From an uncultured Gammaproteobacteria bacterium (GTDB lineage: Bacteria > Patescibacteriota > Microgenomatia > UBA10105 > UBA927): a stretch of 64,000 nucleotides of DNA. The stretch spans positions 183,751 to 247,750 of the forward strand of contig CAYUKU010000001.1 of NCBI GenBank assembly GCA_964445435.1. The letters are read 5' to 3'. The first letter of the stretch is position 1. Every line of letters starts with the position of its first letter. This document shows, one piece after another, positions 1 to 46,583 of the stretch. The notes under the pieces are model-generated. The model was not told where the DNA came from. It did no database searches and saw nothing but the letters and a program-made list of their open reading frames with translations. The position numbers and the translations under genes are program-made.

Positions 1-426
1 TTTTGCCACCGCGGTGGCGGCAGCATAGGCCATTTGATTTGTCGTTGACACGGCAAAGTTCTCAAATGTTGCGTCGGGCCGGATGTGAAGCTTGCGTGCG
101 AGCGCCTCGGTGTTTATGGTTGGAGACTGAAGGGTGGGCGCAAAAAGCGGACCCGCCTCACCCTCTTTCAGTGTTTCCTTTTTGGGAATTACGGTAAACA
201 CGAGGCTTGTGTTTTGGTTGGTGTGGTGGTCAAGGATGCTTTTTACGAGCGAGTAGTATCGCGTTTCAACGAGCGTTCGCATAAGGGGGCTGGTGAAGGC
301 TATGGTGGCAACAGAATCAACGACAGACACAAGGCGCGCGGTGGCAAAGTGCGTTTGAAACGTAGCTTTTGATACAGAGAGTTCGATCTCAGCTAATACT
401 GATTTCCAAAGTTTTTCAATATCCAT
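1..426 (-). CDS. dnaA: Chromosomal replication initiator DnaA, N-terminal 142 aa only. The gene runs off the window start.
   Basis: The minus strand of 1-426 translates as an open frame: MDIEKLWKSVLAEIELSVSKATFQTHFA...TFENFAVSTTNQMAYAAATAVAK. This matches the DnaA N-terminal domain and the conserved segment just before the Walker A (E. coli [23 protein letters not shown]). Not in the ORF track because it is truncated. An in-frame stop lies upstream at about 496-498. Confidence 0.85.
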   Translation of the reverse strand, partial: MDIEKLWKSVLAEIELSVSKATFQTHFATARLVSVVDSVATIAFTSPLMRTLVETRYYSLVKSILDHHTNQNTSLVFTVIPKKETLKEGEAGPLFAPTLQSPTINTEALARKLHIRPDATFENFAVSTTNQMAYAAATAVAK

Positions 427-455
427 AAAACCGTTGGCAGTCCGGGCGAGGAGAG

Positions 456-473
456 AGTGGATAAGTTGTCCAC
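456..473. promoter_or_regulatory. Two adjacent DnaA-box-like 9-mers in the dnaA upstream region.
   Basis: AGTGGATAA at 456-464 and TTGTCCACA at 465-473 each differ by one base from the TTATCCACA/TGTGGATAA consensus. They sit about 30-50 nt upstream of the dnaA start. Confidence 0.35.
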
Positions 474-574
474 ATAGTAGATAACTTTGTCTTTGGTGTC
501 AAGAGAGTATCGGCAGGCTAACGTTTGTAATACGTCATACGAAGCTTCTAAGGAATGAACTGTATAATTACTGC

Positions 575-3385
575 GTGTTTCGAAAGACACTCATTTTTGT
601 CTGCGTAGCGCTTTCTGTTTTCGTCTCCCTGTCGTTTCGTCGCACGGCTAATTGGCGCATCCACACGGGGTCTGCAGTGGTGCGGCCGGTTGTTTTTACT
701 CCCAACGTCACGCTGCTTTCCGAGCAAGAAGTTCTTTATAAGAAAACCATTTATTCGGTGGAAAACGACGTTTTGCGGGCACGAGACAACAGGTCCGGAA
801 AAGAGCGCTGGCGAATTACGTTGGGTACCGGGTTTGTTTTCTCGGATCGTCCGCTCATTGCCTCAGGGCGCCTTTTTGTGGGTGACACGACGGGAACACT
901 GCGGGCCATCGGATTACACTCGGGAAAGACGTTATGGGAGTTGGCACAACAAGAGTCGCCAAAGAGTTTCCCCCGCCCGTCGGGGAGGCCCGGGTGGTTT
1001 GGGTCGATGGCACCTGAAGGATCACGCCTCGTTGTCGGTGGCCGAGACGGCCGGGTGACGTCGCTTCGACAAAATGACGGGAAGAAACTTTGGACGTACG
1101 AGGTTGGAAATCCCATCGTGAACGTGCAAAGCGAAGACGGCAGCGTGTTTGCCTTGGGTCAAAATGGCAGCGTGACAGCTCTGACTTCCGGCGGCAGACT
1201 CGTGTGGACGGAAACACAGGCGAGCTCAGCCGCGTTTCTTCTTTTCCCGAAGGCGACTTTCGGAAAGAGACTGTTGGGTCACGACGCAGGTACGGTGGTA
1301 GTCGTCACACGAAACGGCGATGTTATAGGAAAAGATACCAAAAGCGGACGAACACTCCACACAACGCATCTTGCCGCGTCCATAGTGACGAAGCCCGCTG
1401 TGTGGCAAAACTGGCTTTTTGTCGTAACAAAGGAGCCCAAGTCGAGACTCATAAAGATAGATGGAGTAACGGGCGCAATCGCTTGGAGTCGAAAGTACGA
1501 CGATGTTATTGGGGCGACACCCGTTGTGGGGTATCGCAATCCCCTTACAAGCGGGTTGTGCGCCCGAACAGAAGACGTATTTGGGGCTCTCCCGTTTTGC
1601 ATGCCCTCGGTATTCGTGGGAGACTATCAGGGCGTTTTCCGCGCTGTTGACGTAGAGACCGGTGACTCCCTGTGGAAGTTTTTCACAACTGCCCCCATCG
1701 TGTCGCCGGCGTCGTTTAAGGATAACAGCGTTGTGTTTGGAAATCTTGGCGGCGACGTATATACGGTGTTGGCCTTTGACGGCAAGATTCCCAGGCGCAG
1801 GGGCTGGCTGCGCATGGAGGTTTCCCGAACCGTTTCCACGGTGTTTAATCGGGATATTCAGGAATTCACCCTCAGATATGACCAGTCCCGTTTTAGGTTT
1901 CCCTGGAGCGATATTCTGGCGGAAGCCTCGTTTTCTCAGAAAGGACTGAGCCCCATTACGGTAAGTGGATACTATTTCGACAAAGACACATGGAAGATTG
2001 CCTTCAATCCCCCTTTCCGAGGAGAGTGGCAGTACGAGGTTCGTCTGGTTTTGCCTGACAACAGTGCGGTCGCCGAAAAAGGATCATTTGTAAGCAAAAC
2101 CTCAAGCGACGGCATGTACCTCAAAAGCATATATGTGCCGGGCGGCGTAGGAAGGTTGACTGCCGACGGAAAGCATGCGTACAGCGTCTTTGGGGTTCAG
2201 ACGTCCGAACTGGACTTTAATCGCAACGGAAACTTCCTGGACGACTTTTCGTTTGGAGTTGAATCCCCATCAACGGGATCAGCCGAAACTGAGTGTTTCT
2301 CGTGCGGTTTTCGAGGGCTTGAAGATTTCCTTACGGCGTATGCGGATGGCGGACAAGTATTTAATATGTTTCGGTGGGGTCCGAACAATGCCTCATTCGG
2401 ATTGGCGGACGCGCCGCCTTCTGCCACAGACGCGTATTATGTATTTGAGGGAAGACAAGCGGATCGTCTTATCACGTCGCTGGCAAATCACGGACTTCGG
2501 GTATGGCTGACATTTTTTGAGTCAACGGTTCCCCATCAGGCCGAATGGAGCGCGTCCCCACTGTACGAATTTTTGGCGAAACGGTATATTCGCTATCTCG
2601 TTTCCAGATACGGCGCGTATGTGAGTATATGGGAACTGACGAACGAAGCATACGTTCCGGATAGAATCGTTCAGGCACTCACCCAGTATCTTCGGACGAT
2701 TGATTTTGAAAAAAGGCCCATTACGACCAGTTGGGAGAAAGCGCACCTGTCGACGATTGAGGTCGTTTCGCCCCACTGGTATGCAGATGAAGATTCCCGC
2801 CTTTCTGACGCGGCCCTTCTAAAAGAACTGGAGAGAAGCCAAGGGAGCACCTCGGGTAAACCCGTGGTGTTTGGAGAGATAGGAAACAAGAGCGCAAACT
2901 GGGATCCAGAGTCGGGAGCGCGGATGCGCATACGCATGTGGACTGCAGCCATGCGCGGGGCCGGAGTGGTGTTTTGGAGTACCTCCCACTCAAAGCAATA
3001 TGCGCCAGTCGGGGATCCATTTGGGAATGGAAATCAATATATCGGCGAAAAAGAGCGGGAGCTCGTGCGCATCGCAAATGGTTTTTTCCGTGACATGAGT
3101 CTTGACGCGCGTCCGATAGACATTGGCGTTAACCCGGCTGATGCACGGGGATATGGGTTGGGTGACAAGCAAAAAATTATAGGCTACATCCATCGATATA
3201 GCGATCACGAGAGAAATGCCCCTATCGAGATGACCCTTCAGGTGCCCAAAAACGGAACCCTTTCGTGGTATGACACGAAAACCGGGAAGAAAATCATAAG
3301 CCAGAGGGTACCAGCCGGCAGACATGTCGTCACAAGTCCGGCCTTCCTTATAGATGTCGCGTTTGCGGTAATGCTTGATCCCTAG
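575..3385 (+). CDS. Secreted 936-aa protein with an N-terminal PQQ-type beta-propeller repeat region and a C-terminal GH5-like (clan GH-A TIM-barrel) glycoside-hydrolase-like domain.
   Basis: Signal-peptide-like N-terminus MFRKTLIFVCVALSVFVSLSF. Repeated GKTLWE/GKKLWTY/GRLVWT motifs typical of PQQ propeller blades. C-terminal IWELTNEAY (NE catalytic-acid-like) and VVFGEIGNK (nucleophile-like GE) motifs. Confidence 0.5.
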   Translation: MFRKTLIFVCVALSVFVSLSFRRTANWRIHTGSAVVRPVVFTPNVTLLSEQEVLYKKTIYSVENDVLRARDNRSGKERWRITLGTGFVFSDRPLIASGRLFVGDTTGTLRAIGLHSGKTLWELAQQESPKSFPRPSGRPGWFGSMAPEGSRLVVGGRDGRVTSLRQNDGKKLWTYEVGNPIVNVQSEDGSVFALGQNGSVTALTSGGRLVWTETQASSAAFLLFPKATFGKRLLGHDAGTVVVVTRNGDVIGKDTKSGRTLHTTHLAASIVTKPAVWQNWLFVVTKEPKSRLIKIDGVTGAIAWSRKYDDVIGATPVVGYRNPLTSGLCARTEDVFGALPFCMPSVFVGDYQGVFRAVDVETGDSLWKFFTTAPIVSPASFKDNSVVFGNLGGDVYTVLAFDGKIPRRRGWLRMEVSRTVSTVFNRDIQEFTLRYDQSRFRFPWSDILAEASFSQKGLSPITVSGYYFDKDTWKIAFNPPFRGEWQYEVRLVLPDNSAVAEKGSFVSKTSSDGMYLKSIYVPGGVGRLTADGKHAYSVFGVQTSELDFNRNGNFLDDFSFGVESPSTGSAETECFSCGFRGLEDFLTAYADGGQVFNMFRWGPNNASFGLADAPPSATDAYYVFEGRQADRLITSLANHGLRVWLTFFESTVPHQAEWSASPLYEFLAKRYIRYLVSRYGAYVSIWELTNEAYVPDRIVQALTQYLRTIDFEKRPITTSWEKAHLSTIEVVSPHWYADEDSRLSDAALLKELERSQGSTSGKPVVFGEIGNKSANWDPESGARMRIRMWTAAMRGAGVVFWSTSHSKQYAPVGDPFGNGNQYIGEKERELVRIANGFFRDMSLDARPIDIGVNPADARGYGLGDKQKIIGYIHRYSDHERNAPIEMTLQVPKNGTLSWYDTKTGKKIISQRVPAGRHVVTSPAFLIDVAFAVMLDP

Positions 3386-3387
3386 CG

Positions 3388-4398
3388 ATGTGGTACCCTA
3401 AGAAAGCTTTGAAAAAACAAGAGCAGGACATATACATCGTTATTCCCACCATACGCACACTTTCCTTTTTGCGTGATTGGGAGAGGCAGTTTGAAAACTG
3501 CTTCCTCGTTATTGTTGAGGATCATGCAAAGAGGCAAATCGAAACGCCCCAAACCCCCAGCCGTAAAATCTACCATTACGATTGGAGCGATATAGATGGC
3601 GAGTTTGGTAAAAACCGCTGGATATTCTCCCGGCAAAACGCAGGCATCCGGTCCTACGGGTTTTGGAAAGCTTATGAAATGGGTGCAGACGTCATCATTA
3701 CGCTTGATGATGACTGCTATCCCGCGGAGGCAGACTTTGTACAGAAGCACATAGATAATCTCTCCGCGAGTGCTCCCGTTCGGTGGATGACTACATTTCC
3801 GCACCCTGAGTATATGTACACGCGAGGGTTTCCCTATGAGGTCCGAAAGAAGCGTCCGGTCATGGTAAGCCATGGATTATGGTCAAATAAGATGGATATG
3901 GATGCCCAAACACAAAAACACATCGGGAACGTAAATATTCCGGCATATCCCCTTCTTCGGCAGTATGTGCCCAAAGGTGAGTATTTTCCGATGAGCTCAA
4001 TGAATCTGGCGTTTCTGCGAGATGCTGCTCCTCTAATGTATTTCCCGCTCATGGGAAGAGATCCCAGTGGAAACAATTGGGGGTTTGATCGCTTCGACGA
4101 TATTTGGGCAGGAATTTTTGTCAAAAAAATACTTGACCATCTAGAGTATGCGGTTGTGAATGGATCGCCATTTGTAGAGCACCGGAAGGCCTCTGATGTT
4201 GAGACAAATCTCGTGAAAGAGAAACCTGGACTTAAGATGAATGAGCAGGTGTGGCACTTGGTGGATCGCGTTTTTCTGACGCAGAGTTCGCCGGCGGCCT
4301 GTTATAAGGAACTGTCACAACAAATCGAATTTCCCGACACGCCGTATTTCCGTAAACTGCGAGAGGCAATGGGTATATGGGCTGAGTTATTTTTGTGA
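3388..4398 (+). CDS. Homolog of reversibly glycosylated polypeptide / UDP-L-arabinopyranose mutase (GT75, plant-type RGP/UAM).
   Basis: Colinear blocks shared with plant RGP1: IVIPTIRTLSFLRDWERQF...LVIVED, IITLDDDCY, TRGFPYEVRKKRPVMVSHGLWSN..DMDAQTQ, PMSSMNLAFLRDAAPLMYFPLMG, RFDDIWAGIFVKKILDHL, HRKASDVETNLVKEK. Confidence 0.8.
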   Translation: MWYPKKALKKQEQDIYIVIPTIRTLSFLRDWERQFENCFLVIVEDHAKRQIETPQTPSRKIYHYDWSDIDGEFGKNRWIFSRQNAGIRSYGFWKAYEMGADVIITLDDDCYPAEADFVQKHIDNLSASAPVRWMTTFPHPEYMYTRGFPYEVRKKRPVMVSHGLWSNKMDMDAQTQKHIGNVNIPAYPLLRQYVPKGEYFPMSSMNLAFLRDAAPLMYFPLMGRDPSGNNWGFDRFDDIWAGIFVKKILDHLEYAVVNGSPFVEHRKASDVETNLVKEKPGLKMNEQVWHLVDRVFLTQSSPAACYKELSQQIEFPDTPYFRKLREAMGIWAELFL

Positions 4399-4405
4399 AC
4401 GTAAC

Positions 4406-6379
4406 ATGCGGATGCTTCACGTATTGTACTCGAGAGTCTGGGTATTCTTCGGAGGCTTGTTTGCGCTTGTCCTTTTGGGCGACATACGACAGGGAGTCAT
4501 CGATGTTGTGAGTCTTGCGTTCGTGCTCTCGTTATTTTTGGTTGGAGCTCTGACGAAAGCATCGTACCTATCTCCACCCAAAAAGCTCCACTGGGCGTGG
4601 ATCGTTTTTATCGCCTTTCTTTTCGGAGGATTTTTGACGTCCGATAGCCCGGGGTACTCGGTGACCGCAATCGTGCGCTACTGCATGGCGTACCTGGTTT
4701 TTGGGTATTTTGCGTATGCAAAGGAAGAGATAGAAGCAGCGAAATTTCTCAAGGGGCTTCTCTGGTTTGCATTTATTTCCGTAGGGTTGTCATTTGTGAC
4801 ACTTGCACATAGAGATTTGGGCGGATTTTTACCGGGCATGAATCTCCTCTACCCTGCGTACGGACACAACCACGTGGTAAACATCGTGGTATTCATTTTT
4901 CCTTTTGTAGTCCACGAACTTATTGTTTCACGCAATATCGCAACAGTCGTGGCGATGACATATCTTACCGTGGCGCTTGTGTTGTCCCGCGCCCGAGGAG
5001 GCCTTATTCTTCTTTCCTTCTATTGTGGATGGTTATTTGCCAGCGTGCGCCGGCGCTTCGGTCCGGCGACGCAGATAGGTGCAACGACCGCATTGGTTGT
5101 ATTCGTCGGATTCGTTATATTTTCTCGATTTTCTGCTCCCGCAACCAAAAGCGGTCTTGCTGAGAGCAGGCTTCCCTACTGGAAGCAGGCGGGCGTGGCT
5201 ATAGCCACCCGTCCGCTTTTCGGATATGGCCCAGGGACATTCTATCTGGTGTCAAGAAGGTTCCAAGAAATTCCCGGCACACACTCGTGGTATGCGCACA
5301 GCTTCCTTCTGCAGACGCTTGCGGAGGTAGGGATTATAGGAGCTTTGGGAGTAGGATTTATTTTGGGTTACCCACTCGTTGCGATTGCCAGATCAATGGC
5401 AAAACTGAAGCGGAAGGATCCGCTCATCGTCCCCTTGTGGCACGCAGTTATTCTTGTGTTTTTGTACAGTTTGGTTGAAATGAACTTGGATTTTCTCGTG
5501 ATATGGTTTCTATTCTGGGCGACACTTGGTTTTATCCATCGGCACGCACGCGGCGATCTTGCTGACGGGATTCCCGTCCCTTTGAATGGCTTTTTCAAGA
5601 CACTTTGCGTCCTGTTGGCTCTTTTTTATCTCTCAGCGGTCGCGTCTACAGCAGTTGAGGTTATAGGGAAAGACCATACGTTTTCGTTCTTGTTGCAGCC
5701 ACACGTAACCGGCAAAGCGCTTACGTATCTTTCCCAAAAAAGCCAGGCCCAGCAATATTCTATAGGATTGCCGGAGCGCACAATTAAGTTTTTTCACAAA
5801 AATGATCCGGAAATAGCATTCAGCATGGCGGCATACGCGTCGCAATCAGGAGTCATGAAGTCCCTCCCGTATCTGTTGCAGGCTACAGATGGCGATCCTC
5901 TCAATCAGGAGTATCTTACCGCTTCTCTGGATGGGTTAGTGCGTAGTCTTCCCCAAAAAGACATCGGAATTTTGACACTACGCATGATGGCGCGGGCACC
6001 CAGAATAACGACACAGAGCAAGCTGTTTGAAATGCCCGGCATTGAAGACGATATCGGCAGAGCGCTTGTTTCCGCGTATGAGAAAGGCAAGCCGCGATGG
6101 AGCCAGTGGTACGCAGGGCTTGCGTATGTCCTGGCCATGAACGCACTGTCGGACAATCCGAAGCTCGCCGAGCAGCTCTTGTTATATGCTAGGGATGTGT
6201 ATCCGGACTTGGGTTTTATACATATGGATTTAATCCGTTTTTATGAGAGCACGCTTGGTGATCACGACGCCGCAGCGGAGGCGGCGCGGTACTGTGGCTT
6301 TTTGAATTCTCCCAAAAAACAATGTGAAGTTGAAGATAAAACACTTCCTCCTGGTGATTTCCTGTATTTGTTTATATAA
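4406..6379 (+). CDS. Wzy_C (O-antigen ligase / PglL-like) polytopic membrane protein with a roughly 230-aa C-terminal soluble extension.
   Basis: Multi-TM N-terminal two-thirds. LSRARGGLILL and HSFLLQTLAEVGIIGALG motifs (H-x-x-F/L...E-x-G) are characteristic of the Wzy_C domain. Confidence 0.65.
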   Translation: MRMLHVLYSRVWVFFGGLFALVLLGDIRQGVIDVVSLAFVLSLFLVGALTKASYLSPPKKLHWAWIVFIAFLFGGFLTSDSPGYSVTAIVRYCMAYLVFGYFAYAKEEIEAAKFLKGLLWFAFISVGLSFVTLAHRDLGGFLPGMNLLYPAYGHNHVVNIVVFIFPFVVHELIVSRNIATVVAMTYLTVALVLSRARGGLILLSFYCGWLFASVRRRFGPATQIGATTALVVFVGFVIFSRFSAPATKSGLAESRLPYWKQAGVAIATRPLFGYGPGTFYLVSRRFQEIPGTHSWYAHSFLLQTLAEVGIIGALGVGFILGYPLVAIARSMAKLKRKDPLIVPLWHAVILVFLYSLVEMNLDFLVIWFLFWATLGFIHRHARGDLADGIPVPLNGFFKTLCVLLALFYLSAVASTAVEVIGKDHTFSFLLQPHVTGKALTYLSQKSQAQQYSIGLPERTIKFFHKNDPEIAFSMAAYASQSGVMKSLPYLLQATDGDPLNQEYLTASLDGLVRSLPQKDIGILTLRMMARAPRITTQSKLFEMPGIEDDIGRALVSAYEKGKPRWSQWYAGLAYVLAMNALSDNPKLAEQLLLYARDVYPDLGFIHMDLIRFYESTLGDHDAAAEAARYCGFLNSPKKQCEVEDKTLPPGDFLYLFI

Positions 6380-6397
6380 TGTGATCTCACACGTTGT

Positions 6398-7243
6398 ATG
6401 ATTACGATCATTGATCGGTGGAAACAACTTGCTGCCAGGCGGTTATCAAAGACATTCCTCACGCGGACCGATGTCATCATTCTTCTGTGCATCGTCATGC
6501 TTTTGGGCGTTATGGGTGTTGCGGTGAAGCTTGTGCTTCAGAAAGATACGTATGTGACTGTTGAGCTTCTGGCTTCCGGCGGAGAGTGGTGGTGGGGCGT
6601 CCCGCCTCCCTATTATTGGAATGCCCGTGATATAGTCATCGGCGCAAAGGAATATGACTCGTTTCGCAAGGTGACCTCAGAGGTTGTTGACTTGGTTAAA
6701 TACGGCGAGGACGACCGGAGATTCATGTGGCTTGAGGTAAGGCTTCTGGCGAAGAAAAACATGTTGACAAAAACATATTCGTTTAAGCAGGAAACCCTCC
6801 AGATCGGGAAAACCATTCACCTATCGCCAAATAATGTTGCCATCATCGGACAGATTGTGGGTATCGAAGGCGTTGGGAGAATGTGGAAGACCGAGTATGT
6901 TGAGGTGCAGGGGAAAGTCCGTCATATAGAGCCTTGGGAGGCAGATGCAATTAAACCGGCAGACAAAGTTTTTGATAACAAGGGGCAACTGGTTGCTGAG
7001 ATACAGGAGGTACGCGTGGAAAACTCTGACGTTATGACCACCACATGGACCGGTGACACACTTGTGCGGAAGAATCCTCTTCTTCGTGATGTGACCACAA
7101 AAATGAAGCTCCGCGTTATGAAGGATGATAGTATGCGCTACTTCAATTTCTATCAGCCAGTTGAGATAGGAAACAATATTCGAATTCAGTTCCCAGAGAC
7201 GGCAATTGAATTCAATATTATGTCTATAACGCCCGCAAACTAG
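6398..7243 (+). CDS. Hypothetical membrane-anchored protein (one N-terminal TM, extracytoplasmic domain).
   Basis: Long ORF in an operonic position. TM segment ILLCIVMLLGVMGVAV. No recognisable motifs. Confidence 0.4.
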   Translation: MITIIDRWKQLAARRLSKTFLTRTDVIILLCIVMLLGVMGVAVKLVLQKDTYVTVELLASGGEWWWGVPPPYYWNARDIVIGAKEYDSFRKVTSEVVDLVKYGEDDRRFMWLEVRLLAKKNMLTKTYSFKQETLQIGKTIHLSPNNVAIIGQIVGIEGVGRMWKTEYVEVQGKVRHIEPWEADAIKPADKVFDNKGQLVAEIQEVRVENSDVMTTTWTGDTLVRKNPLLRDVTTKMKLRVMKDDSMRYFNFYQPVEIGNNIRIQFPETAIEFNIMSITPAN

Positions 7244-8025
7244 CTCATTTTTTGAGCGATGACCCATACGCTCCACGGCGCTTGTGCGGGTTTACGCATA
7301 GAGTATGCCAAATTTCCCCAGTGAACGATCCGAAAACCAGCCAGTGAAGTGAACGCTTCAAGTTCAGGAAAGAAAAAATACCTCATGGTGTGAGTTTCGC
7401 GAAGCTTCCTCGTCTGGCCGGTTGCCGGACGGATGGTAAGCGTGTGATGCACGTCAACCGTATTAGTCGCGTGAGAGAGTTTTGGAATTTTCTGTCGAAA
7501 CACCTCTAACTGATCATTTTTGTAATGCTGCCGGACAACCCGCGGTTTTCCCAAAAAAACACCCGGTCCGTACCAGCAGTCAAATATAAAAACACCGTGC
7601 GGCTTGAGAATAGAAGCGGCTCTGCGGAAGAATTGTTCAACCTCGCGGTTTGTTTTCATGTAGCTAAGGACGTCGAAGAGAGAAACCGCCACGTCATATG
7701 TTTTTGGTGTTTTGTATGAGAGAAAGTCTCCGGTTATATACGCTATGTCTGCGGAGGCGTCGGCCGCTTTCTTTTTGGCCACTTCAAGCATTTGGGTTGA
7801 CTGATCAATCCCTGTTATCTTGGCTCCCTGTTTCCATAATTCGAGCGTGTATGCTCCCGTGCCGCACCCAATGTCAAACACTGAAATGTCGGTCCGCTTC
7901 GGGAGAAGCGCTTTGGCGTGATGGAAAATCATGCGCGTGGTTTCTTCAATCCCGCGCTTTTCGTACATAAGGTCGTAGTATGGAGCAGTCAGTGAAAACG
8001 GAAGTACGGAATGTTTTGATTTCAT
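7240..8025 (-). CDS. Class I SAM-dependent methyltransferase.
   Basis: VFDIGCGTGAYT motif I, acidic motif II and LKPHGVFIFD post-I motifs. ATGA overlap with the upstream GT4 gene. Confidence 0.8.
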   Translation of the reverse strand: MKSKHSVLPFSLTAPYYDLMYEKRGIEETTRMIFHHAKALLPKRTDISVFDIGCGTGAYTLELWKQGAKITGIDQSTQMLEVAKKKAADASADIAYITGDFLSYKTPKTYDVAVSLFDVLSYMKTNREVEQFFRRAASILKPHGVFIFDCWYGPGVFLGKPRVVRQHYKNDQLEVFRQKIPKLSHATNTVDVHHTLTIRPATGQTRKLRETHTMRYFFFPELEAFTSLAGFRIVHWGNLAYSMRKPAQAPWSVWVIAQKMS

Positions 8026-38345: not shown

Positions 38346-38384
38346 ACTGATAGCGTCTTTCCCGGTACAATACGAATCCTTCCT

Positions 38385-40999: not shown

Positions 41000-41013
41000 A
41001 GTTATCCCACTTA

Positions 41014-41655
41014 TTGTCATTGACAATATTGTATAATAGTTTTGTGAACCGTAACTGGTGGTTTGTTGGTCTTCTTGTTTCCATAGTTGTGTTATTGCCT
41101 CTCTTAGGCTTATGGTGGTATCGTGGATATTTTTCTTCGGAGTTAGAGCCCGAAAAACTACGATTTCGTATCGATGCTGCCTTTGAAAATGCGTACCGCC
41201 AGAATGATCCTTATGCGATTTGGTTCAATCGGGTGGTATTTAAAAACGGCGATAAATTTGCATGGCGACCACCGCGAATTCTTGCAACTCATATTCCTAC
41301 CACTTATGAAGTTTCCGGATATGAATTTTATGGCGTTGTGACAAGATGGCGTCCGGATGTGAAATTGCTTCATATAAACACCTATATAGGTAAACCCCTG
41401 ACAGTTCGTTTTGATCCAGACTCTGATAGATCCATAGCTATTATTCCTAAGCTTGATGCTTACGGGAAAATTATTGGATCAAACATATTACCAGTTGTCC
41501 AGTCAATGTATGTGCCCGATTGGAATACACTTTTTTGTGAAAGCGACATTGTTTCTATAAAGGTGAGGTCGAAATTTTCGATAATGTTTGGTCGACCTGA
41601 TAATCCACTTATTCCAGTTAATATAGTATTAACGCAACGTCTTTGTCAGGTATGA
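41014..41655 (+). CDS. Hypothetical membrane-anchored protein (N-terminal TM plus beta-rich domain).
   Basis: TM WWFVGLLVSIVVLLPLLGLWWY. Overlaps the next gene by 13 nt in an operonic arrangement. Confidence 0.45.
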   Translation: MSLTILYNSFVNRNWWFVGLLVSIVVLLPLLGLWWYRGYFSSELEPEKLRFRIDAAFENAYRQNDPYAIWFNRVVFKNGDKFAWRPPRILATHIPTTYEVSGYEFYGVVTRWRPDVKLLHINTYIGKPLTVRFDPDSDRSIAIIPKLDAYGKIIGSNILPVVQSMYVPDWNTLFCESDIVSIKVRSKFSIMFGRPDNPLIPVNIVLTQRLCQV

Positions 41656-43229
41656 GACTCTGGACACCATTAATGGCCTTTCTTTTTGTCGTAATTACAT
41701 CTTGGTTTACGCCGGTTTTTGCTCAATATCCTACAACGCCAACACCAACCGGAGCGCCAAAAACGTGTTGTCAGAATTTGGACTGCGGGAGCTGTCCGGG
41801 GGATCCAAACAAAACATACGTTATGTGTCAGACATGCCCATCGTGGTGGAGCTGTGGAGATGGTGATTGTGGTTCTGGAGATAATGGCGGGGGCGGTTGT
41901 TATACAATCACAAATTGTAACGCATGTCATCCAACGAAATGTACGCCAACATGCGGTCTGGGAGGGTGTCCCGGTGGATGCGGAAACGTTGATGATTGTG
42001 GTGGTGTAGACTGCGCGGCCTGTCCAGGCGGCGGAGGTGGAGGCGGCGGTGGTGGAGGATGTGGAGATGGGACATGTGGTGCGGGAGAAACTTGTTCTAG
42101 TTGTCCAAATGATTGCGGCTTATGTCCTTCTGGTAACGCTCGTGCGCGGGGACACATTATTGCCTCAACTGTCACCACATGCGCGCAGGTCAGAGCGAGC
42201 ACCAATTACCTCGCCGAAACCCTTACACTTACGAACGCGTTACCCGCGTCTCAAAACATTTCAGGCGGTACATACGCTCAGTGGAATAATCTCGTGCCGA
42301 ACGCACACACGCTCTCCGACATTCCCCCTGCGGGGTATGTGCTTAAGCTTGCCTGCTGGCAGACGGACACGCCCGCAGCGCAGGGAACCGGCATGACTGC
42401 CGATGTGCCGACCGGCGGGACGCTTACCTGGAATTTGGGATATACCAACGGAACTGCCTGGATGCAGACACGGGGCGGTGATGTGTATGCCGCTATGGGT
42501 TTGTCATCTCCCATTCCCGTAGGGGCAAGTCCACGGTATGGACTTCTTGATGGCGGGAGCGGATTGCCCGGTGTTGCGACGTACGGGGTTTCGTATGATT
42601 TTGACAGTGATACCGGCAGTCTCGGCGAATCATATGTTTCCTCAACCGGCTGGCTTGCAAACGAGACGTACGCCGCCACGGATTTCTACGCACTTATGTA
42701 CCAGCGGTTTGATTCGCCGGCAGCTGATTATTCCGGGCCGACGACATTTACTTCCCAATTGGCAAGCGGGACATACTTCGTCGACGGTGATCTCACTATC
42801 GGCACAAACCCGTGGAATGTAGGAAGCGGGACGAGCATCGTTGTGCTCGTCAACGGCAATCTGACCATTAACCAAACGATTAATCTATCGGGTACCGGAT
42901 TCGTCGCTTTCATCGTCAATGGCAATATCACCGTCAGTCCGAACGTTGGGGTTGTCAACACGTCATCGGCGCCAGCACTGGAGGGAGTCTATATCACCTC
43001 CCCCACCGGCACCTTTACGACGGGCGCTTCCACAACTGCCGGGTCGGAGCGGTTTGTAGGTAGAGGTATTTTTGTCGCGGGAGACTTCAGTCTCACACGG
43101 GATCTGGATAGTTATGGCGTAAACAACACGACGTCTTCCGAGCTGTTTATCTACAATCCCCGGCTCCTTATCACGATGCCGGATGAAATGCGTGATCTTC
43201 CCGTGACCTGGCAGGAAGTCGCTCCGTAA
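41643..43229 (+). CDS. Secreted Cys-rich/Gly-rich protein with a beta-helix-like C-terminal domain, rich in N-x-S/T sequons.
   Basis: Signal peptide MSGMRLWTPLMAFLFVVITSWFTPVFAQ. About 40 Cys in 150 aa including CGDGTCGAGETCSSCPNDCGLCP-type repeats. (Gly)11 run. Repetitive VNGNLTINQTINLSGTGFVAFIVNGNITVSPNVG beta-strand pattern. Many NxT/NxS motifs (NGT, NET, NLT, NQT, NLS, NIT, NTS, NNTT). Confidence 0.55.
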   Translation: MSGMRLWTPLMAFLFVVITSWFTPVFAQYPTTPTPTGAPKTCCQNLDCGSCPGDPNKTYVMCQTCPSWWSCGDGDCGSGDNGGGGCYTITNCNACHPTKCTPTCGLGGCPGGCGNVDDCGGVDCAACPGGGGGGGGGGGCGDGTCGAGETCSSCPNDCGLCPSGNARARGHIIASTVTTCAQVRASTNYLAETLTLTNALPASQNISGGTYAQWNNLVPNAHTLSDIPPAGYVLKLACWQTDTPAAQGTGMTADVPTGGTLTWNLGYTNGTAWMQTRGGDVYAAMGLSSPIPVGASPRYGLLDGGSGLPGVATYGVSYDFDSDTGSLGESYVSSTGWLANETYAATDFYALMYQRFDSPAADYSGPTTFTSQLASGTYFVDGDLTIGTNPWNVGSGTSIVVLVNGNLTINQTINLSGTGFVAFIVNGNITVSPNVGVVNTSSAPALEGVYITSPTGTFTTGASTTAGSERFVGRGIFVAGDFSLTRDLDSYGVNNTTSSELFIYNPRLLITMPDEMRDLPVTWQEVAP

Positions 43230-43247
43230 AGTTGTTATACTCGAAGA

Positions 43248-44561
43248 ATGCGCCGTTTCCTCGTTGATGGTATTCTTTTTGCGGTTGTTCTTATCCTCTC
43301 CATCACAATGCTTGTCCCACAGCTCAAGCGGCATATGTTTTTCATCGATGAATACGAATTCATGCGCAAAAGCTATCTTTTCGATGTGTATTTTCTGAAA
43401 CAGAACCTGGGCGATCCGCGGTGGACCGATGCGGCGCTTGAGTCCGATGCGCCGCAGCCAAAGGTGGGGCCGTATATCTTCGGGCTTGCGCTTCATCTGT
43501 CCGGAGTTCGTGATATCGAAACTGCCTTCAGGCAAAGCGGGTTTTCGACGATTCAGGTCGATGGCCATCCGTGGTGGGAAGCGCTCTGGACGAAGGAGCC
43601 CTCGAAATTTCCCGACTCACTCGCACAGAGCTTCTCGTATATACTCATCGGCCGGCGTGCAGCGGCTGTGTTTAGCATCGCGTCGATACTTTTTGTCTTC
43701 CTTTTGGGTACGACGCTCCATAGCTCCGTATTGGGATTTATCGCGGCAATCCTGTTTCTTGTGAATCCCCTTTTTCGCCTCGAGGCGGGGTTTGCCATGA
43801 CTGATACCATGCAGCTTGCGTTTCTCCTTCTTACCGTTCTTCTTCTTGTATATTGGCGGGGGGCGTGGCAAAAAAAGAGCTATCCCTGGCTTCTGACTCT
43901 CAGTGTCGGCATTGGTCTTGCCGCATCACTCGCCGCGGGCGTAAAAGTGACGGGGATGCTTGCCATGTTGTTTGTGGGTATGCATCAGGTATATACATAC
44001 GCCCGGGAAGAGATGACGGCGGCGCTGAGGCGTATGCTCGTTCTTTCGACGGCAACCATGGTTGTTGTGTTTTGGAGCGTTTTTTATGCACTTCATCCGT
44101 ATATTCATACCGATACGTTCCGACAACTGCGCTACATGTATCAGGCGAGGATGAACGTCTCCCAGACGCTGTATGCGCAAACATATCCACACACGTATAT
44201 TCCCACCAGGACCCAAGCTCTCCGATACGTGCTTATGAGAACCATGTTGCCTTACTCGCTTTATGGGAATTTCTCCCATTCCTGGATTCCGTGGGACATG
44301 ATGCTTGTTGTAGGCGGGAGTTTGGTATTGATAAACGATGTGTTCGCGCGCTGGAAGAAAAGAGGGGCGCTGCCAAGGCTTGCGATTTTGCCGCTATGGA
44401 TTTCCTTTACGGCAGTTTCTCTCGTATGGTATCTCTCCCATGACTGGTCGCGGTACTATCTGCCGGTCGCTTCGGGGATCACGATTCTTGAGGCCTACAT
44501 GATTACGTATCTTTTCTTCCGGTTCGGCGGGGGCGTCCTGTATGATAGACTTCCCAAGTGA
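43248..44561 (+). CDS. GT-C-like polytopic membrane protein (candidate lipid-linked-sugar glycosyltransferase).
   Basis: About 11 TM segments. N-terminal loop FFIDEYEFMRKSYLF D-E motif. Confidence 0.5.
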   Translation: MRRFLVDGILFAVVLILSITMLVPQLKRHMFFIDEYEFMRKSYLFDVYFLKQNLGDPRWTDAALESDAPQPKVGPYIFGLALHLSGVRDIETAFRQSGFSTIQVDGHPWWEALWTKEPSKFPDSLAQSFSYILIGRRAAAVFSIASILFVFLLGTTLHSSVLGFIAAILFLVNPLFRLEAGFAMTDTMQLAFLLLTVLLLVYWRGAWQKKSYPWLLTLSVGIGLAASLAAGVKVTGMLAMLFVGMHQVYTYAREEMTAALRRMLVLSTATMVVVFWSVFYALHPYIHTDTFRQLRYMYQARMNVSQTLYAQTYPHTYIPTRTQALRYVLMRTMLPYSLYGNFSHSWIPWDMMLVVGGSLVLINDVFARWKKRGALPRLAILPLWISFTAVSLVWYLSHDWSRYYLPVASGITILEAYMITYLFFRFGGGVLYDRLPK

Positions 44562-44580
44562 AATCCGCTATACTTAACGT

Positions 44581-44718
44581 ATGGTGAAGCGAGTGTATCA
44601 GCCCAAAAAAGGAAAGCGCGTGCGGACGCACGGATTCCGAACGCGCATGAAGACACATTCCGGCCGCAAAGTCCTCAAAAGACGCCGAGCCACGGGACGA
44701 GGACGCCTCACGGTATAA
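44581..44718 (+). CDS. rpmH: 50S ribosomal protein L34.
   Basis: Translates to [45 protein letters not shown], near-identical to bacterial bL34. Not in the ORF track because it is shorter than 60 aa. Confidence 0.9.
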
Positions 44719-44725
44719 TGCATCC

Positions 44726-45076
44726 ATGCTCCCTTCCGTAAACAGGATTCCCACAGGTGACATCCGTCGTGTTATGAAAACAGGCCGCCGCCTTCCGGGG
44801 TATGGCATGATCTTGATTTACGTGCGCTCGAAGGAAATGAAAGTTGTTCCCTCGGCGCCACGTTTTTCGTTTGTCGTTTCCACGAAGGTGGATAAACGCG
44901 CAGTGGTGCGAAACCGGGTACGGCGGATTCTTTCCGAATCCGTGCATCATCTTCTGGATCGTATAGCGCCCGCCACGGATGGGATTATCTTGGCTTCCAA
45001 GGAGCTTGTAGGGTTGTCTCAAAAAGAAGCGGAAGAACGGATTTCTGCAGTATTTACGAAAGCTGGGATTCTATGA
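44726..45076 (+). CDS. rnpA: Ribonuclease P protein component.
   Basis: Immediately downstream of rpmH. RnpA-like basic protein with VRNRVRRIL (the RNR motif). 116 aa. Confidence 0.85.
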
Positions 45077-45315
45077 AACGGCTCGCGCTGTCTACGATAC
45101 GGCTGTATCAGCGGTACCTGTCGCCTGATACCGGAATGCTCAGATCGCTCTGGCTCGTGGATAGCGCGTGTCGGTACAAGCCCACCTGCAGTGAGTATAC
45201 CTATCAAGCGATCGATCACTATGGTATACTACGGGGATCGATTTTGGGGTTGAAGCGGATCGTCCGCTGTCACCCCTGGAACAAGGGCGGATACGATCCC
45301 CTGCCAACGCTATGA
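45073..45315 (+). CDS. yidD: Membrane protein insertion efficiency factor YidD.
   Basis: [10 protein letters not shown]...[17 protein letters not shown]...[18 protein letters not shown] matches the YidD family. ATGA overlap with rnpA. Confidence 0.85.
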
Positions 45316-46124
45316 CAAACCCAGGTCTTTGGAATCAACTTCTTGTTTGGCCCATTATTAACGTACTGGTTGCACTGTATAAGTTCTTCGAGTGGATCGG
45401 CGTACCGGGGCCGCTCGGATTTGCCGTCATAGGGCTTACCATAGTTATTCGTCTTATCCTCTATCCGCTTATGCAGGCGCAATTGCGCAGCGCCAAAAAG
45501 ATGGCGAAATTGAAGCCTCACCTTGATGCGCTCAACGACAAACACAAGAATGACAAATCCGCACTTCAGCAGGCGCAGCTTGCGCTCTACAAAGAACACG
45601 GGGTGAACCCAGCGGCGGGGTGTTTGCCGCTTCTTATCCAGATGCCGGTTCTTATCGCGCTTTACAATGTTTTTTACCAGGTCCTTAACAACGGAAATCT
45701 CGAGAAACTCGTCTCGGACCTCAACAGTGTCGTGTACGCGCCGTGGCTTAGGATCGGGTCGCTTGATCTTTCTTTCTTCGGAGTGAATTTGGGGCTCAAG
45801 CCGTCAGCGTGGCAAACAGACGGATGGTGGCTCCTTTCCATTCCTCTTATAACCGCAGCACTTCAGTATTGGCAAAGCAGGCTTATGATGCCTACCTATG
45901 CGAAAACTTCCGACAATAAGCCTGCACTTGTTAAAAAGGGCGCAAAGGAGGATGAGCAAAAGCCGGAAGATACGGCAGCAGAGATGCAAAAACAGATGGC
46001 CATTATAACCCCTATCATGTTTGGGTATTTCGCGTTTCAGTTTCCGCTCGGGTTGGCCCTTTACTGGAATGTGTTCGGAATTTTTGGTATCATCCAACAA
46101 CTTGCGGTGAACCGCGAGAAATAA
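45312..46124 (+). CDS. yidC: Membrane protein insertase YidC (short Oxa1-like form).
   Basis: [33 protein letters not shown], five-TM core. Position after rnpA-yidD. Confidence 0.85.
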
Positions 46125-46130
46125 GCACGT

Positions 46131-46583
46131 ATGGAAGCAAAAGTTCAAGTACAACAGGTGACAGAGGATTTATTGAACCGTTTGGGCGTCACGGGCGCTG
46201 TGACGGTGGATATTGACGAAACCGAAGCCTACCGCGTGCACATCGAAACTGAGGAAACCGGTCTCCTTATCGGATTTCACGGCCGAACGCTTGAAAGCCT
46301 TCAAATTATTCTGGGACTCTTAGTTTCCAAAGCGCTGGGTGCATGGGTAAAAGTTTATGTCAATGTCGGTGACTACCGCGAGAAGCGCGAGGAAGCCCTT
46401 ATGCTTATGGCTCAGCAAGCTGCCGACCGCGCTATCACCCAGGGCAGGCCCATTGAGCTCTCTCACCTTTCTGCGTCAGAACGAAGAGTCGTACACTTAA
46501 CTCTCTCCGGGGATGACCGCGTGGAGACGGAATCAGTCGGCGAAGGCATGAGCCGGACGCTTCTGGTGAAACCGAAAGCGTGA
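46131..46583 (+). CDS. jag: Jag/KhpB-like RNA-binding protein (KH plus R3H domains).
   Basis: GLLIGFHGRTLESLQ (KH-like) and SERRVVHLTLS (R3H-like). Canonical position downstream of yidC. Confidence 0.8.
   Translation: MEAKVQVQQVTEDLLNRLGVTGAVTVDIDETEAYRVHIETEETGLLIGFHGRTLESLQIILGLLVSKALGAWVKVYVNVGDYREKREEALMLMAQQAADRAITQGRPIELSHLSASERRVVHLTLSGDDRVETESVGEGMSRTLLVKPKA

What the first reader, a model, noticed from the sequence alone, without database searches (positions are those of the whole stretch)
1..46583. The origin-region gene pair dnaA and rpmH-rnpA-yidD-yidC-jag is split by a 44-kb glycan biosynthesis supercluster
dnaA (1-426, minus) and rpmH-rnpA-yidD-yidC-jag (44581-46583, plus) are both present and point away from each other. 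This is the canonical divergent arrangement around oriC in most bacteria. Here they are about 44 kb apart instead of a few hundred bp, and the intervening space is almost entirely cell-envelope glycosylation genes. Either an envelope-glycan island was inserted into or expanded within the origin-proximal region, or oriC lies elsewhere (for example dnaA-dnaN) and this cluster occupies the most gene-dosage-favoured position of the chromosome. Origin-proximal placement implies high copy number during growth and strong selection for its expression.
Basis: partly seen in the sequence, partly recalled or inferred. Interest (0 to 1): 0.8.

Follow-up and report, generated by a model that had tools for sequence, protein, structure and literature searches.

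The report
Glycan locus splits dnaA from rpmH
In this uncultured Gottesmanbacteria (candidate phyla radiation) genome, a 44-kb strain-variable block of cell-surface sugar genes has grown between the normally adjacent dnaA and rpmH genes, about 1.5 kb from the replication origin; the split is real and lineage-specific, but it is a familiar kind of variable polysaccharide locus in an unusual place.

Summary
The dnaA 5' end (1-426, minus) and rpmH-rnpA-yidD-yidC-jag (44581-46583, plus) are divergent and 44,154 bp apart. 26 of the 39 intervening ORFs carry glycan synthesis or export domains.

The organism is a Candidatus Gottesmanbacteria (Patescibacteria). A 100%-identical contig from the same sample supplies the window's left flank. 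There, oriC is predicted in the 201-bp dnaA-dnaN spacer, about 1 kb left of the window. That spacer holds six same-strand DnaA boxes and an AT-rich tract, and the GC-skew minimum lies about 190 bp away. The 148-bp dnaA upstream spacer holds only the dnaA promoter and a conserved two-box operator.

Comparative data show that adjacency is ancestral: 34 of 36 more distant relatives keep it, against 1 of 10 close metagenome relatives. Spacing elsewhere in Gottesmanbacteria is 0.1, 2.5 or 8.4 kb. Two relatives in the window's subclade have 38.2 and 42.0 kb. In that subclade the right flank is conserved, the low-GC centre varies, and recombination breakpoints are visible.

The split is therefore an old, stepwise accretion and not a recent mobile island. 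The gene-dosage argument is weak, because CPR bacteria grow slowly and half the genes are head-on. Interest is moderate.

The parts
1..426 (-). 5' part of dnaA (first 142 of 453 codons). The rest of dnaA, the predicted oriC and dnaN lie off-window to the left, at window coordinates -935..0, -1136..-936 and -2240..-1137.
   Evidence: Translation and Pfam DnaA_N. The full gene is on L030, which overlaps the window with 0 mismatches over 13,385 nt.
456..474 (.). Inverted pair of DnaA boxes (TTATCCACT on minus at 456-464; TTGTCCACA on plus at 466-474). Read as the autoregulatory operator of dnaA, not as an origin.
   Evidence: The same pair sits 12-130 bp upstream of dnaA in nearly all Gottesmanbacteria relatives. 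The surrounding spacer has GC 0.43 and no AT-rich tract.
474..502 (-). dnaA promoter-like site, TTGACA-17-TACTAT. The DnaA-box pair begins at its -10 element.
   Evidence: 10 of 12 matches; the only promoter-like site in 380-620. The same arrangement can be read in L002.
575..15721 (.). Left glycan block: secreted beta-propeller/DUF5060 protein, RGP (GT75), Wzy_C, DUF4330, methyltransferase, GT4, ABC-2 permease + ATPase, Wzy_C, two GT2, GDSL and WecG/TagA. GC is about 0.48-0.50.
   Evidence: Pfam. The first 10 kb is collinear with the closest GTDB relative L002, at 41-73% protein identity.
15722..20315 (.). Four multi-pass membrane proteins with no Pfam match. They are inferred, not shown, to be GT-C-like membrane glycosyltransferases or polymerases.
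   Evidence: No hits even at E<=1. The sequences are dominated by hydrophobic segments.
20307..37734 (.). Low-GC (about 0.45) centre, variable between relatives at least at its right end: DegT + GFO pairs x2, GT1/GT2/GT4, a UGM-like flavoenzyme, UbiA-family prenyltransferase, radical SAM/SPASM, and a second ABC-2 exporter pair.
   Evidence: Pfam; GC by gene. In each of four relatives, different genes lie to the left of the ABC pair. Nucleotide identity to the 94-95% identical strain L024 falls to about 70% left of 37962.
37746..44561 (+). Conserved right block abutting rpmH: Bac_transf initiating phosphoglycosyl transferase, three unknown proteins, a Cys/Gly-rich DUF7305 protein and a PMT-like GT-C. 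GC is 0.51.
   Evidence: Pfam. The same order is seen upstream of rpmH in L023, L024, L025/26 and largely in L028.
40342..41940 (+). Hypervariable sub-block covering the C-terminus of g36, all of g37 (GC 0.389) and the N-terminus of g38.
   Evidence: No blastn alignment to L024 here, although both sides are 94-95% identical. g37 is only 40% identical at the protein level. GC.
44546..44574 (+). Compact rpmH promoter-like site (TAGACT-17-TATACT) that overlaps the stop codon of the PMT-like gene. The -10 element ends 6 nt before the rpmH ATG, which looks leaderless.
   Evidence: 9 of 12 matches; promoter-like sites in that region are not enriched over shuffles. A TATACT/TATAAT element 6-10 nt upstream of the rpmH ATG is conserved in every lineage, with or without the split.
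44581..46583 (+). rpmH-rnpA-yidD-yidC-jag operon.
   Evidence: ORFs and Pfam. The operon is conserved in all relatives.
46600..52086 (.). Glycan genes distal to jag: Wzy_C, RNase H, Polysacc_synt (Wzx-type) flippase and DUF4012. Wzy_C and the flippase are ancestrally linked to the rpmH operon.
   Evidence: Pfam. The jag-Wzy_C-flippase order is present even where dnaA and rpmH are adjacent (L017, Woesebacteria L018), and DUF4012 also follows in L017.

Best explanation
The window is the first 64 kb of one replichore of a Candidatus Gottesmanbacteria (Patescibacteria/CPR) chromosome.

1. Replication most likely starts in the 201-bp dnaA-dnaN spacer, about 1 kb left of the window. The 148-bp dnaA upstream spacer carries only the dnaA promoter and a two-box DnaA operator.

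2. In the ancestor, rpmH and dnaA were back-to-back, about 0.1-0.2 kb apart. Because that spacer held only promoters, it tolerated insertions between the dnaA -35 element and the rpmH -10 element.

3. In Gottesmanbacteria the spacer has accumulated genes repeatedly. In the window's subclade it has become a 38-44 kb multi-module envelope-glycan locus. The modules are an initiating phosphoglycosyl transferase, many glycosyltransferases, amino-sugar and possibly furanose-sugar enzymes, two ABC-2 exporters, Wzy_C ligase/polymerase-like proteins and GT-C-like membrane enzymes.

4. The locus behaves like an O-antigen or capsule locus. The segment next to rpmH is conserved, and the segment next to dnaA is shared with the closest relatives. 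The lower-GC centre is exchanged by recombination, which gives strain-specific surface glycans.

5. The position next to the origin is most likely a by-product of a permissive site beside an already glycan-linked rpmH operon, not an adaptation for gene dosage.

Shown: gene identities, spacing, predicted oriC signals, skew switch, ancestral adjacency, conserved flanks, variable centre, breakpoints. Inferred: the accretion mechanism, the glycan's role, and the lack of dosage selection.
For: Organism: 17 DnaA N-terminal relatives are Gottesmanbacteria or Patescibacteria MAGs, and YidC relatives are named likewise.

oriC: L030 is identical to window 1-13385 and extends 9.4 kb further left. Its dnaA-dnaN spacer has GC 0.388, six same-strand DnaA boxes (one perfect; Poisson 5e-5 at <=1 mismatch and 1.3e-4 at <=2) and an 83%-AT 30-mer beside dnaN. 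The cumulative G-C minimum is at about -1326, with skew mostly negative to the left and positive across all 64 kb of the window. In the 16 relatives' dnaA loci, 15 show the same skew flip at dnaA and most show box clusters of 2-6 just past the dnaA stop codon. Across 25 further loci the dnaA-dnaN spacers hold 77 boxes in 9.3 kb, against 31 in 6.9 kb of rpmH-dnaA spacers.

dnaA promoter and operator.

Ancestral adjacency: 34 of 36 distant relatives (YidC <60% identity) have dnaA within 2 kb upstream of rpmH, divergent, with dnaN next wherever the locus extends that far. Only 1 of 10 close relatives does. L017, L012 and Woesebacteria L018 are adjacent at 114, 122 and about 156 bp. L014 is at 2.5 kb and L010 at 8.4 kb.

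Subclade: the gap is 38,214 bp on CAZKLT010000002.1 and 41,977 bp on CAYSEV010000003.1. A DnaA NJ tree groups all the large-gap genomes.

Variable centre: one search shows different glycan genes next to dnaA in L006. Searches show four different gene sets left of the ABC pair. One search shows breakpoints at 37962 and around 40342-41940 against a 94-95% identical strain. One search shows GC 0.450 in the centre against 0.50-0.51 in the flanks.

Not a mobile island and not a recent duplication: paralogues are only 28-33% identical, there are no long repeats, no integrase or transposase, and no tRNA in the gap.

Insertion point: homology to the adjacent-state spacer of L017 runs through TGTCAAGAG (window about 496-504) and then stops.

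A relic supporting exchange: a diverged dnaA 5' pseudogene lies inside the glycan region of a relative.
Against: - The origin is predicted from sequence only and lies off-window.
- The 14-43 kb middle of the window is not covered by an independent assembly.
- Only 10-kb ends of the relatives' gaps could be read, so conservation of the centre is sampled, not measured.
- The left end is not uniformly conserved. L006 has different genes next to dnaA, so 'conserved flanks' holds well only for the rpmH side and for the closest relatives.
- In other Gottesmanbacteria the genes upstream of dnaA are not glycan genes (TyrRS, FtsH, Mur-ligase-like, AbiEii). The spacer is therefore rearrangement-prone in general and not a glycan-specific hotspot.
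- The DnaA NJ tree is a single-gene tree without support values, so the number of independent expansions is uncertain.
- No expression or glycan data exist.
Confidence: 0.72

Rival explanations
1. Gene-dosage selection. The glycan cluster sits next to oriC because origin-proximal genes are present in more copies during growth, and high expression of envelope glycans is selected.
For: The cluster starts about 1.5 kb from the predicted oriC and the whole 64 kb lies on one replichore. The origin-adjacent position is kept in at least three genomes of the subclade.
Against: CPR bacteria have a reported median iRep of 1.29, and only 9.1% of values exceed 1.5, so the ori/ter dosage gain is small (bioRxiv 10.1101/057992). 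19 of the 39 genes (18.2 of 44.4 kb) are transcribed head-on to the fork, which is unlike highly expressed origin-proximal genes. Sister lineages do without this placement, or have unrelated genes there.
Confidence: 0.12
2. Recent horizontal insertion of a mobile genomic island into the dnaA-rpmH spacer of this particular genome.
For: The central 18-37.7 kb has lower GC (0.450 against about 0.50). There are sharp identity breakpoints against a 94-95% identical strain.
Against: Gaps of the same scale, with a homologous right flank (and a homologous left 10 kb in the closest one), occur in relatives that are only 73-82% identical in the DnaA N-terminus. The gap contains no integrase, transposase, tRNA or flanking direct repeats. 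The breakpoints fit replacement of the centre, not insertion of the whole locus.
Confidence: 0.04
3. Separation by origin-centred inversions or translocations that moved a pre-existing glycan cluster next to dnaA, not by insertion or accretion in the spacer.
For: Rearrangements do occur here. In L016 the whole rpmH-to-DUF4012 block is inverted relative to dnaA. In L011 the genes upstream of dnaA are co-oriented housekeeping genes.
Against: In the window and in the two measured large-gap genomes (CAZKLT, CAYSEV), dnaA and rpmH keep their ancestral divergent orientation and replichore. That would need at least two matched inversions. Intermediate spacings of 2.5 and 8.4 kb exist. The dnaA promoter and operator and the rpmH -10 element are each retained at their own gene.
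Confidence: 0.1
4. Assembly or binning artefact that joins an origin contig to an unrelated glycan contig.
For: The source is a metagenome-assembled contig, and the 14-43 kb middle has no independent assembly in the collections searched.
Against: Independent Logan contigs reproduce both ends exactly. GC skew is uniformly positive across the window. Two other MAGs from other projects show the same architecture on single contigs.
Confidence: 0.03

Closest known systems
[quoted passage not shown]
   Same: rpmH-rnpA is divergent from dnaA. dnaA is followed directly by dnaN. DnaA boxes and an AT-rich tract lie in the dnaA-dnaN spacer, and a skew switch occurs there.
   Different: rpmH is 44 kb from dnaA, not about 0.1-0.5 kb. 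recF and gyrB do not follow dnaN; instead there are an unknown gene, an M23 peptidase and VirB4/TraG- and TraC-like genes on the other strand. The dnaA upstream spacer has only two boxes.
Variable surface-polysaccharide loci bounded by conserved core genes: enterobacterial O-antigen locus (galF-gnd), pneumococcal cps (dexB-aliA), Klebsiella K locus (from my own knowledge)
   Same: Fixed chromosomal site between housekeeping genes. Initiating transferase, glycosyltransferases, sugar-nucleotide enzymes and exporter or flippase genes. Lower GC than the flanks. Central content differs between relatives, with recombination breakpoints near the conserved edges.
   Different: The bounding genes are dnaA (with oriC) and the rpmH operon. 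The locus is larger and multi-modular, with two ABC-2 exporters plus Wzy_C and flippase genes. The host is a CPR bacterium of roughly 1-Mb genome size. The left edge is not uniformly conserved. The glycan product is unknown.
Escherichia coli origin region, where oriC lies about 42 kb from dnaA in a different gene context (from my own knowledge; the general point is in PMC4285127)
   Same: It shows that the origin gene cluster can be pulled apart on a scale of tens of kb without loss of function.
   Different: In E. coli, oriC itself moved away while rpmH and dnaA stay adjacent. Here oriC stays with dnaA-dnaN and rpmH is the partner displaced.

Membership tests
Canonical rnpA-rpmH-dnaA-dnaN origin cluster | rpmH(-rnpA) immediately upstream of dnaA and divergent from it (a spacer of a few hundred bp) | tested here: not met
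   The orientation is divergent but the spacing is 44,154 bp. Adjacency is met in 34 of 36 distant relatives and in L012, L017 and L018.
Canonical rnpA-rpmH-dnaA-dnaN origin cluster | dnaN directly downstream of dnaA | tested here: met
   On L030, which is identical to the window in the overlap, dnaA is at 8491-9852 and dnaN at 7186-8289, with a 201-bp spacer.
Canonical rnpA-rpmH-dnaA-dnaN origin cluster | recF-gyrB following dnaN | tested here: not met
   The genes beyond dnaN are an unknown 337-aa protein, Peptidase_M23, a P-loop_TraG/DUF87 ATPase and a TraC-like protein, all on the opposite strand.
DnaA-dependent oriC | Cluster of DnaA boxes in a non-coding spacer | tested here: met
   The dnaA-dnaN spacer has 3 boxes at <=1 mismatch (Poisson 5e-5) and 6 at <=2 mismatches, all on the same strand. 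The feature lies off-window at -1136..-936. Only two boxes are found in 427-574.
DnaA-dependent oriC | AT-rich unwinding element next to the boxes | tested here: inconclusive
   An 83%-AT 30-mer (TTATGTGTTATTAGTAGTAATAATAAGAAA) lies beside the dnaN start, and spacer GC is 0.388. This is composition only; unwinding was not tested.
DnaA-dependent oriC | GC-skew sign change (minus to plus) at the site | tested here: met
   The cumulative G-C minimum is at window coordinate about -1326, and skew is positive across the whole window. 15 of the relatives' 16 dnaA loci flip sign at dnaA. Only 9.4 kb to the left could be read.
DnaA-dependent oriC | Replication initiates there in vivo | not testable with these tools
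   This needs marker-frequency analysis of reads or an experiment.
Variable surface-polysaccharide (O-antigen/capsule-type) locus | Initiating phosphoglycosyl transferase, glycosyltransferases, and an export or polymerisation system | tested here: met
   Bac_transf (3.4e-50), WecG/TagA (6.9e-46), GT2/GT4/GT1 genes, two ABC-2 permease + ATPase pairs, Wzy_C x3 and a Polysacc_synt flippase. These are domain assignments only.
Variable surface-polysaccharide (O-antigen/capsule-type) locus | Fixed site between conserved core genes, with content that differs between related strains | tested here: met
   The site is shared by the window, CAZKLT and CAYSEV. Gene content next to dnaA and left of the ABC pair differs between them. 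Breakpoints are seen against a 94-95% identical strain. Only the ends of the relatives' loci were readable.
Variable surface-polysaccharide (O-antigen/capsule-type) locus | Atypical (lower) GC in the variable part | tested here: met
   GC is 0.450 for 18.0-37.7 kb, against 0.498, 0.514 and 0.502 for the flanks and the rest of the window.
Variable surface-polysaccharide (O-antigen/capsule-type) locus | Makes a surface-exposed polysaccharide or glycoconjugate | not testable with these tools
   The organism is uncultured, and there are no biochemical data.
Mobile genomic island | Integrase, transposase or conjugation genes inside, and a tRNA or direct repeats at the borders | tested here: not met
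   No such Pfam hits in 575-44561. The only tRNA and the only tyrosine recombinase are at 61-63 kb. No repeats longer than 41 nt were found.
Mobile genomic island | Absent from the same site in close relatives | tested here: not met
   Homologous large gaps are present in relatives with 73-82% DnaA N-terminal identity.

The most novel reading that the evidence does not exclude
In this Gottesmanbacteria subclade the dnaA-rpmH spacer may have become a dedicated surface-glycan diversity hotspot. Under this reading, the origin genes (dnaA/oriC on one side, the rpmH-yidC operon on the other) serve as universally conserved homology arms for whole-cassette exchange between strains and species. The diverged dnaA 5' pseudogene stranded inside a relative's glycan region would then be the footprint of such an import. 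The resulting glycan variation could set host-attachment specificity or phage escape for these episymbionts. The DnaA operator shared with the divergent first gene of the cluster might also couple envelope synthesis to the replication cycle.
Probability: 0.25. Interest if true: 0.55.

Novelty: new member of a known kind. Interest (0 to 1): 0.36.

Why it matters
- **Investment in surface glycans.** A CPR symbiont lineage with a genome of roughly 1 Mb devotes 40-50 kb, placed directly beside its replication origin, to a variable surface-glycan locus. Surface glycans are plausible determinants of host attachment and phage resistance in organisms that cannot yet be cultured.
- **A practical anchor.** dnaA and rpmH give a conserved pair of markers for recovering and typing these loci from metagenomes.
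- **A caution for MAG curation.** In this group, rpmH-dnaA adjacency cannot be used to mark or orient the origin. The dnaA-dnaN spacer is the better marker.
- **No new mechanism.** The finding does not reveal a new molecular mechanism.

Tried and rejected
- **Look-ups that failed.** Exact-protein look-ups for the RGP gene, the first Wzy_C gene and rpmH found nothing. The 248-kb NCBI source contig listed for the 100%-identical YidC could not be retrieved, so a full-contig skew curve was not possible.
- **Limits on relatives' sequence.** Only one genome-contig scan was allowed, so the middles of the relatives' gaps (about 19-22 kb each) remain unread. So does the left 22 kb of the near-identical strain contig ERR15113708_27551.
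- **Unknown proteins.** A relaxed Pfam search (E<=1) of ten unannotated gap proteins gave nothing usable. Calling them GT-C-like is inference from their hydrophobic profiles.
- **No remnants or RNA genes in the gap.** I looked for dnaA remnants inside the window's gap and found none. I looked for long repeats, tRNAs and Rfam families in the gap and found none.
- **In-situ duplication rejected.** The DegT, GFO, GT2 and ABC paralogues are only 28-33% identical.
- **427-574 as the origin rejected.** It has only two boxes, placed at the dnaA promoter, and no AT-rich tract.
- **Literature.** Searches found no paper on this arrangement in Gottesmanbacteria.
Full report
**1. The observation.**
The minus strand of 1-426 encodes the first 142 residues of DnaA (Pfam DnaA_N). 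On the plus strand lie rpmH (44581-44718), rnpA (44726-45076), yidD (45073-45315), yidC (45312-46124; a short 270-aa form) and jag (46131-46583). All five have clear Pfam matches. The two groups are divergent and 44,154 bp apart.

The gap holds 39 tightly packed ORFs. 26 of them carry domains expected in glycan synthesis, modification or export:
- RGP/GT75, WecG/TagA, and several GT2, GT4 and GT1 genes
- a Bac_transf initiating transferase
- two Wzy_C proteins
- two ABC-2 permease + ATPase pairs
- two DegT aminotransferase + GFO/IDH/MocA oxidoreductase pairs
- a UGM-like flavoenzyme, a UbiA-family enzyme, a radical SAM/SPASM enzyme, a GDSL esterase, a methyltransferase and a PMT-like GT-C

The other 13 are secreted or multi-pass membrane proteins without a family. 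Glycan genes continue past jag: Wzy_C, a Polysacc_synt flippase and DUF4012.

**2. The organism and the missing left flank.**
A scan of species-representative genomes with the DnaA fragment returned 17 relatives. They are Candidatus Gottesmanbacteria or Patescibacteria MAGs, several of them mislabelled 'uncultured Gammaproteobacteria'. The best has 82% identity.

An exact-protein look-up of the first gap gene returned Logan contig SRR10095373_20867 (L030). It overlaps window 1-13385 with no mismatch and extends 9.4 kb further left. It shows the full dnaA (453 aa; window coordinates -935..426), a 201-bp spacer (-1136..-936) and dnaN (-2240..-1137). A second Logan contig (L001) reproduces the genes of about 42.8-51.4 kb at 100% protein identity.

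**3. Where the origin is.**
GC skew is positive in every 2-kb window of the 64 kb, so there is no switch inside the window. On L030 the skew is mostly negative to the left and positive to the right, and the cumulative G-C minimum falls at window coordinate about -1326.

The dnaA-dnaN spacer has these properties:
- GC 0.388
- three DnaA boxes with at most one mismatch, one of them perfect (Poisson 5e-5 against the window's background density)
- six boxes with at most two mismatches, all on one strand
- an 83%-AT 30-mer beside the dnaN start

The relatives' dnaA loci look the same. 15 of the 16 show a skew flip at dnaA, most have two to six boxes just past the dnaA stop codon, and L002 has an AT-rich tract before dnaN. 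In 25 more distant loci the dnaA-dnaN spacers hold 77 boxes in 9.3 kb, against 31 in 6.9 kb of rpmH-dnaA spacers.

By contrast, window 427-574 has only an inverted two-box pair (456-464 and 466-474). The pair starts at the -10 element of a good dnaA promoter, TTGACA-17-TACTAT at 502-474 on the minus strand. This is the classic layout of DnaA autoregulation, and it is conserved in nearly all relatives. The spacer before rpmH is 19 bp and has no boxes.

The origin is therefore predicted in dnaA-dnaN, about 1 kb outside the window. The glycan cluster begins about 1.5 kb from it.

**4. Is the split an insertion?**
tblastn of the window's proteins against the relatives' dnaA loci gives a graded series (spacer lengths).

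| Locus | State |
|---|---|
| L017 | rpmH adjacent and divergent, 114 bp |
| L012 | adjacent and divergent, 122 bp |
| L018 (Woesebacteria) | adjacent and divergent, about 156 bp |
| L014 | 2.5 kb apart |
| L010 | 8.4 kb apart, with Wzy_C, a Bac_transf fragment, AbiEii, Mur-ligase-like, HAD and inositol monophosphatase genes between |
| L016 | the whole rpmH block inverted |
| L011, L013 | unrelated housekeeping genes upstream of dnaA |
| L002-L008 | glycan genes and no rpmH within the upstream sequence available (10 kb; 2.3 kb for the short contig L007) |

A DnaA neighbour-joining tree groups L002-L008, and the adjacent-state L017 branches just outside that group.

YidC homologues let me place rpmH on two of the same contigs:
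- On CAZKLT010000002.1, rpmH starts at 72750 (minus) and dnaA at 110965 (plus), a gap of 38,214 bp.
- On CAYSEV010000003.1, dnaA starts at 9963 (minus) and rpmH at 51941 (plus), a gap of 41,977 bp.

A metagenome scan with YidC gives the wider picture. Among loci with enough upstream sequence, 34 of 36 distant relatives (YidC <60% identity) have dnaA within 2 kb upstream of rpmH, divergent, and followed by dnaN wherever the locus extends that far. Only 1 of 10 close relatives (>=60% identity) does.

Adjacency is therefore ancestral. The split is derived within Gottesmanbacteria and is shared at the 38-44 kb scale by the window's subclade. It is old, not a recent event in this genome.

**5. Nature of the locus.**
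- **Right edge.** It is conserved. ABC ATPase, ABC-2 permease, Bac_transf, two to three unknown proteins, DUF7305, PMT-like, then rpmH appear in L023, L024, L025/26 and largely in L028.
- **Left 10 kb.** It is collinear with L002 and partly with L004. L006 has different glycan genes there: Wzy_C, radical SAM/SPASM, three GT4, an epimerase and an asparagine-synthase-like gene.
- **Left of the ABC pair.** Each genome differs. The window has GT1, radical SAM and UbiA. L023 has a methyltransferase and a nucleotidyltransferase. L025 has an APS kinase. L028 has an aminotransferase and a decarboxylase.
- **Breakpoints.** Against a strain that is 94-95% identical over 37962-53447, identity falls to about 70% left of 37962, inside Bac_transf. 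It is lost altogether across 40342-41940.
- **Composition.** These edges coincide with GC steps: 0.45 to 0.52 at about 37.7 kb, and g37 at 0.389.
- **No mobility signatures.** Paralogues inside the cluster are only 28-33% identical, and there are no long repeats, mobility genes, tRNAs or Rfam hits in the gap.

This is the signature of a fixed-site, recombinationally exchanged surface-polysaccharide locus. It is not the signature of a mobile island or of in-situ duplication.

**6. Insertion point.**
The window's dnaA-side spacer aligns with the adjacent-state spacer of L017 through the box pair, the -10 element and TGTCAAGAG (the dnaA -35 read on the other strand). It then diverges. A TATACT/TATAAT element 6-10 nt upstream of the rpmH ATG is kept in every lineage (window 44569-44574). 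Both promoters therefore stayed with their genes, and the new DNA lies between them. Because oriC is on the far side of dnaA, this promoter-only spacer can accept DNA without harming replication or either operon. That last step is inference.

**7. Gene dosage.**
- Reported iRep values for CPR bacteria have a median of 1.29, and 9.1% exceed 1.5 (bioRxiv 10.1101/057992).
- 19 of the 39 gap genes (18.2 kb) are head-on to the replication fork.
- Sister lineages lack the placement, or have other genes there.
- Wzy_C and the flippase are linked to jag even in adjacent-state genomes, including Woesebacteria. The origin region was therefore already a glycan neighbourhood, which offers a simpler historical explanation.

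**8. Comparison with known systems, and verdict.**
[quoted passage not shown] The literature already notes that this cluster is dispensable for oriC function (PMC4285127).
- Functionally the locus resembles O-antigen or capsule loci bounded by core genes (my own knowledge), here with dnaA and rpmH as the bounds.
- I found no paper describing this in Gottesmanbacteria.

I rate it a new member of a known kind. It is of moderate interest for CPR genomics and MAG curation, but it is not mechanistically novel.

Noticed in passing
L009 9944-10854 (CAYHHA010000001.1, around 34741; a relative, not the window): An 855-nt dnaA 5' pseudogene with its start codon lost and a frameshift in the Walker A motif. 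It keeps the DnaA-box pair, is only 76.6% identical to the same genome's intact dnaA 36 kb away, and sits among glycan genes. It may be a relic of an imported or duplicated dnaA-adjacent segment.
   Followed up: partly
L030 1-7181 (window coordinates about -9425 to -2245): Beyond dnaN the genes are TraC-like, a VirB4/TraG-type P-loop ATPase (DUF87), a 771-aa M23 peptidase and an unknown 337-aa protein. All are on the strand opposite to dnaN, and recF and gyrB are absent. This is a type IV secretion- or conjugation-like set right next to the origin.
   Followed up: no
window 44546-44580 and 559-574; rpmH upstream regions of L010, L012, L014, L016, L017, L018, L023-L028: A -10-like TATACT/TATAAT element ends only 6-10 nt before the rpmH ATG in every lineage, and a TATAAT ends 10 nt before the GTG of the first gap gene. 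No Shine-Dalgarno sequence is evident. This suggests leaderless or near-leaderless mRNAs.
   Followed up: partly
window 41014-43229: g37 (213 aa, GC 0.389) is only 40% identical between strains that are otherwise 94-95% identical. The neighbouring g38 (DUF7305, 528 aa) has a Cys- and Gly-rich N-terminal region, including a run of 11 Gly. These are likely fast-evolving surface proteins.
   Followed up: partly
window 3388-4398, 30054-31472, 32815-33894: A homologue of reversibly glycosylated polypeptide (GT75, best known from plants as UDP-arabinopyranose mutase; E=7.6e-48), a UGM-like flavoenzyme and a UbiA-family prenyltransferase occur together. This hints at furanose sugars and polyprenyl-phosphate-linked donors for the GT-C-like membrane proteins.
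   Followed up: no
L016 1383-9235: In one Patescibacteria relative the whole Bac_transf-rpmH-...-DUF4012 block lies within 10 kb of dnaA but is inverted (same strand as dnaA). This shows an inversion with an endpoint in the dnaA-rpmH spacer.
   Followed up: no
window 54376-55491 and 58300-58863: A 371-aa protein carries only the class II aaRS catalytic core (tRNA-synt_2) and lies 3 kb from efp. It could be an EpmA/PoxA-type EF-P modifying enzyme and not a tRNA synthetase.
   Followed up: no
window 61229-62629: A XerC/D-type tyrosine recombinase (285 aa) lies next to the only tRNA in the window (tRNA-Met, 62553-62629). It is well outside the glycan gap.
   Followed up: no
record titles of L002, L003, L006-L009, L011, L013-L015, L017: Many public MAGs that are clearly Gottesmanbacteria by DnaA and YidC similarity and by synteny are titled 'uncultured Gammaproteobacteria bacterium' (TPA_asm records). 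This is likely a labelling error in the source records.
   Followed up: no
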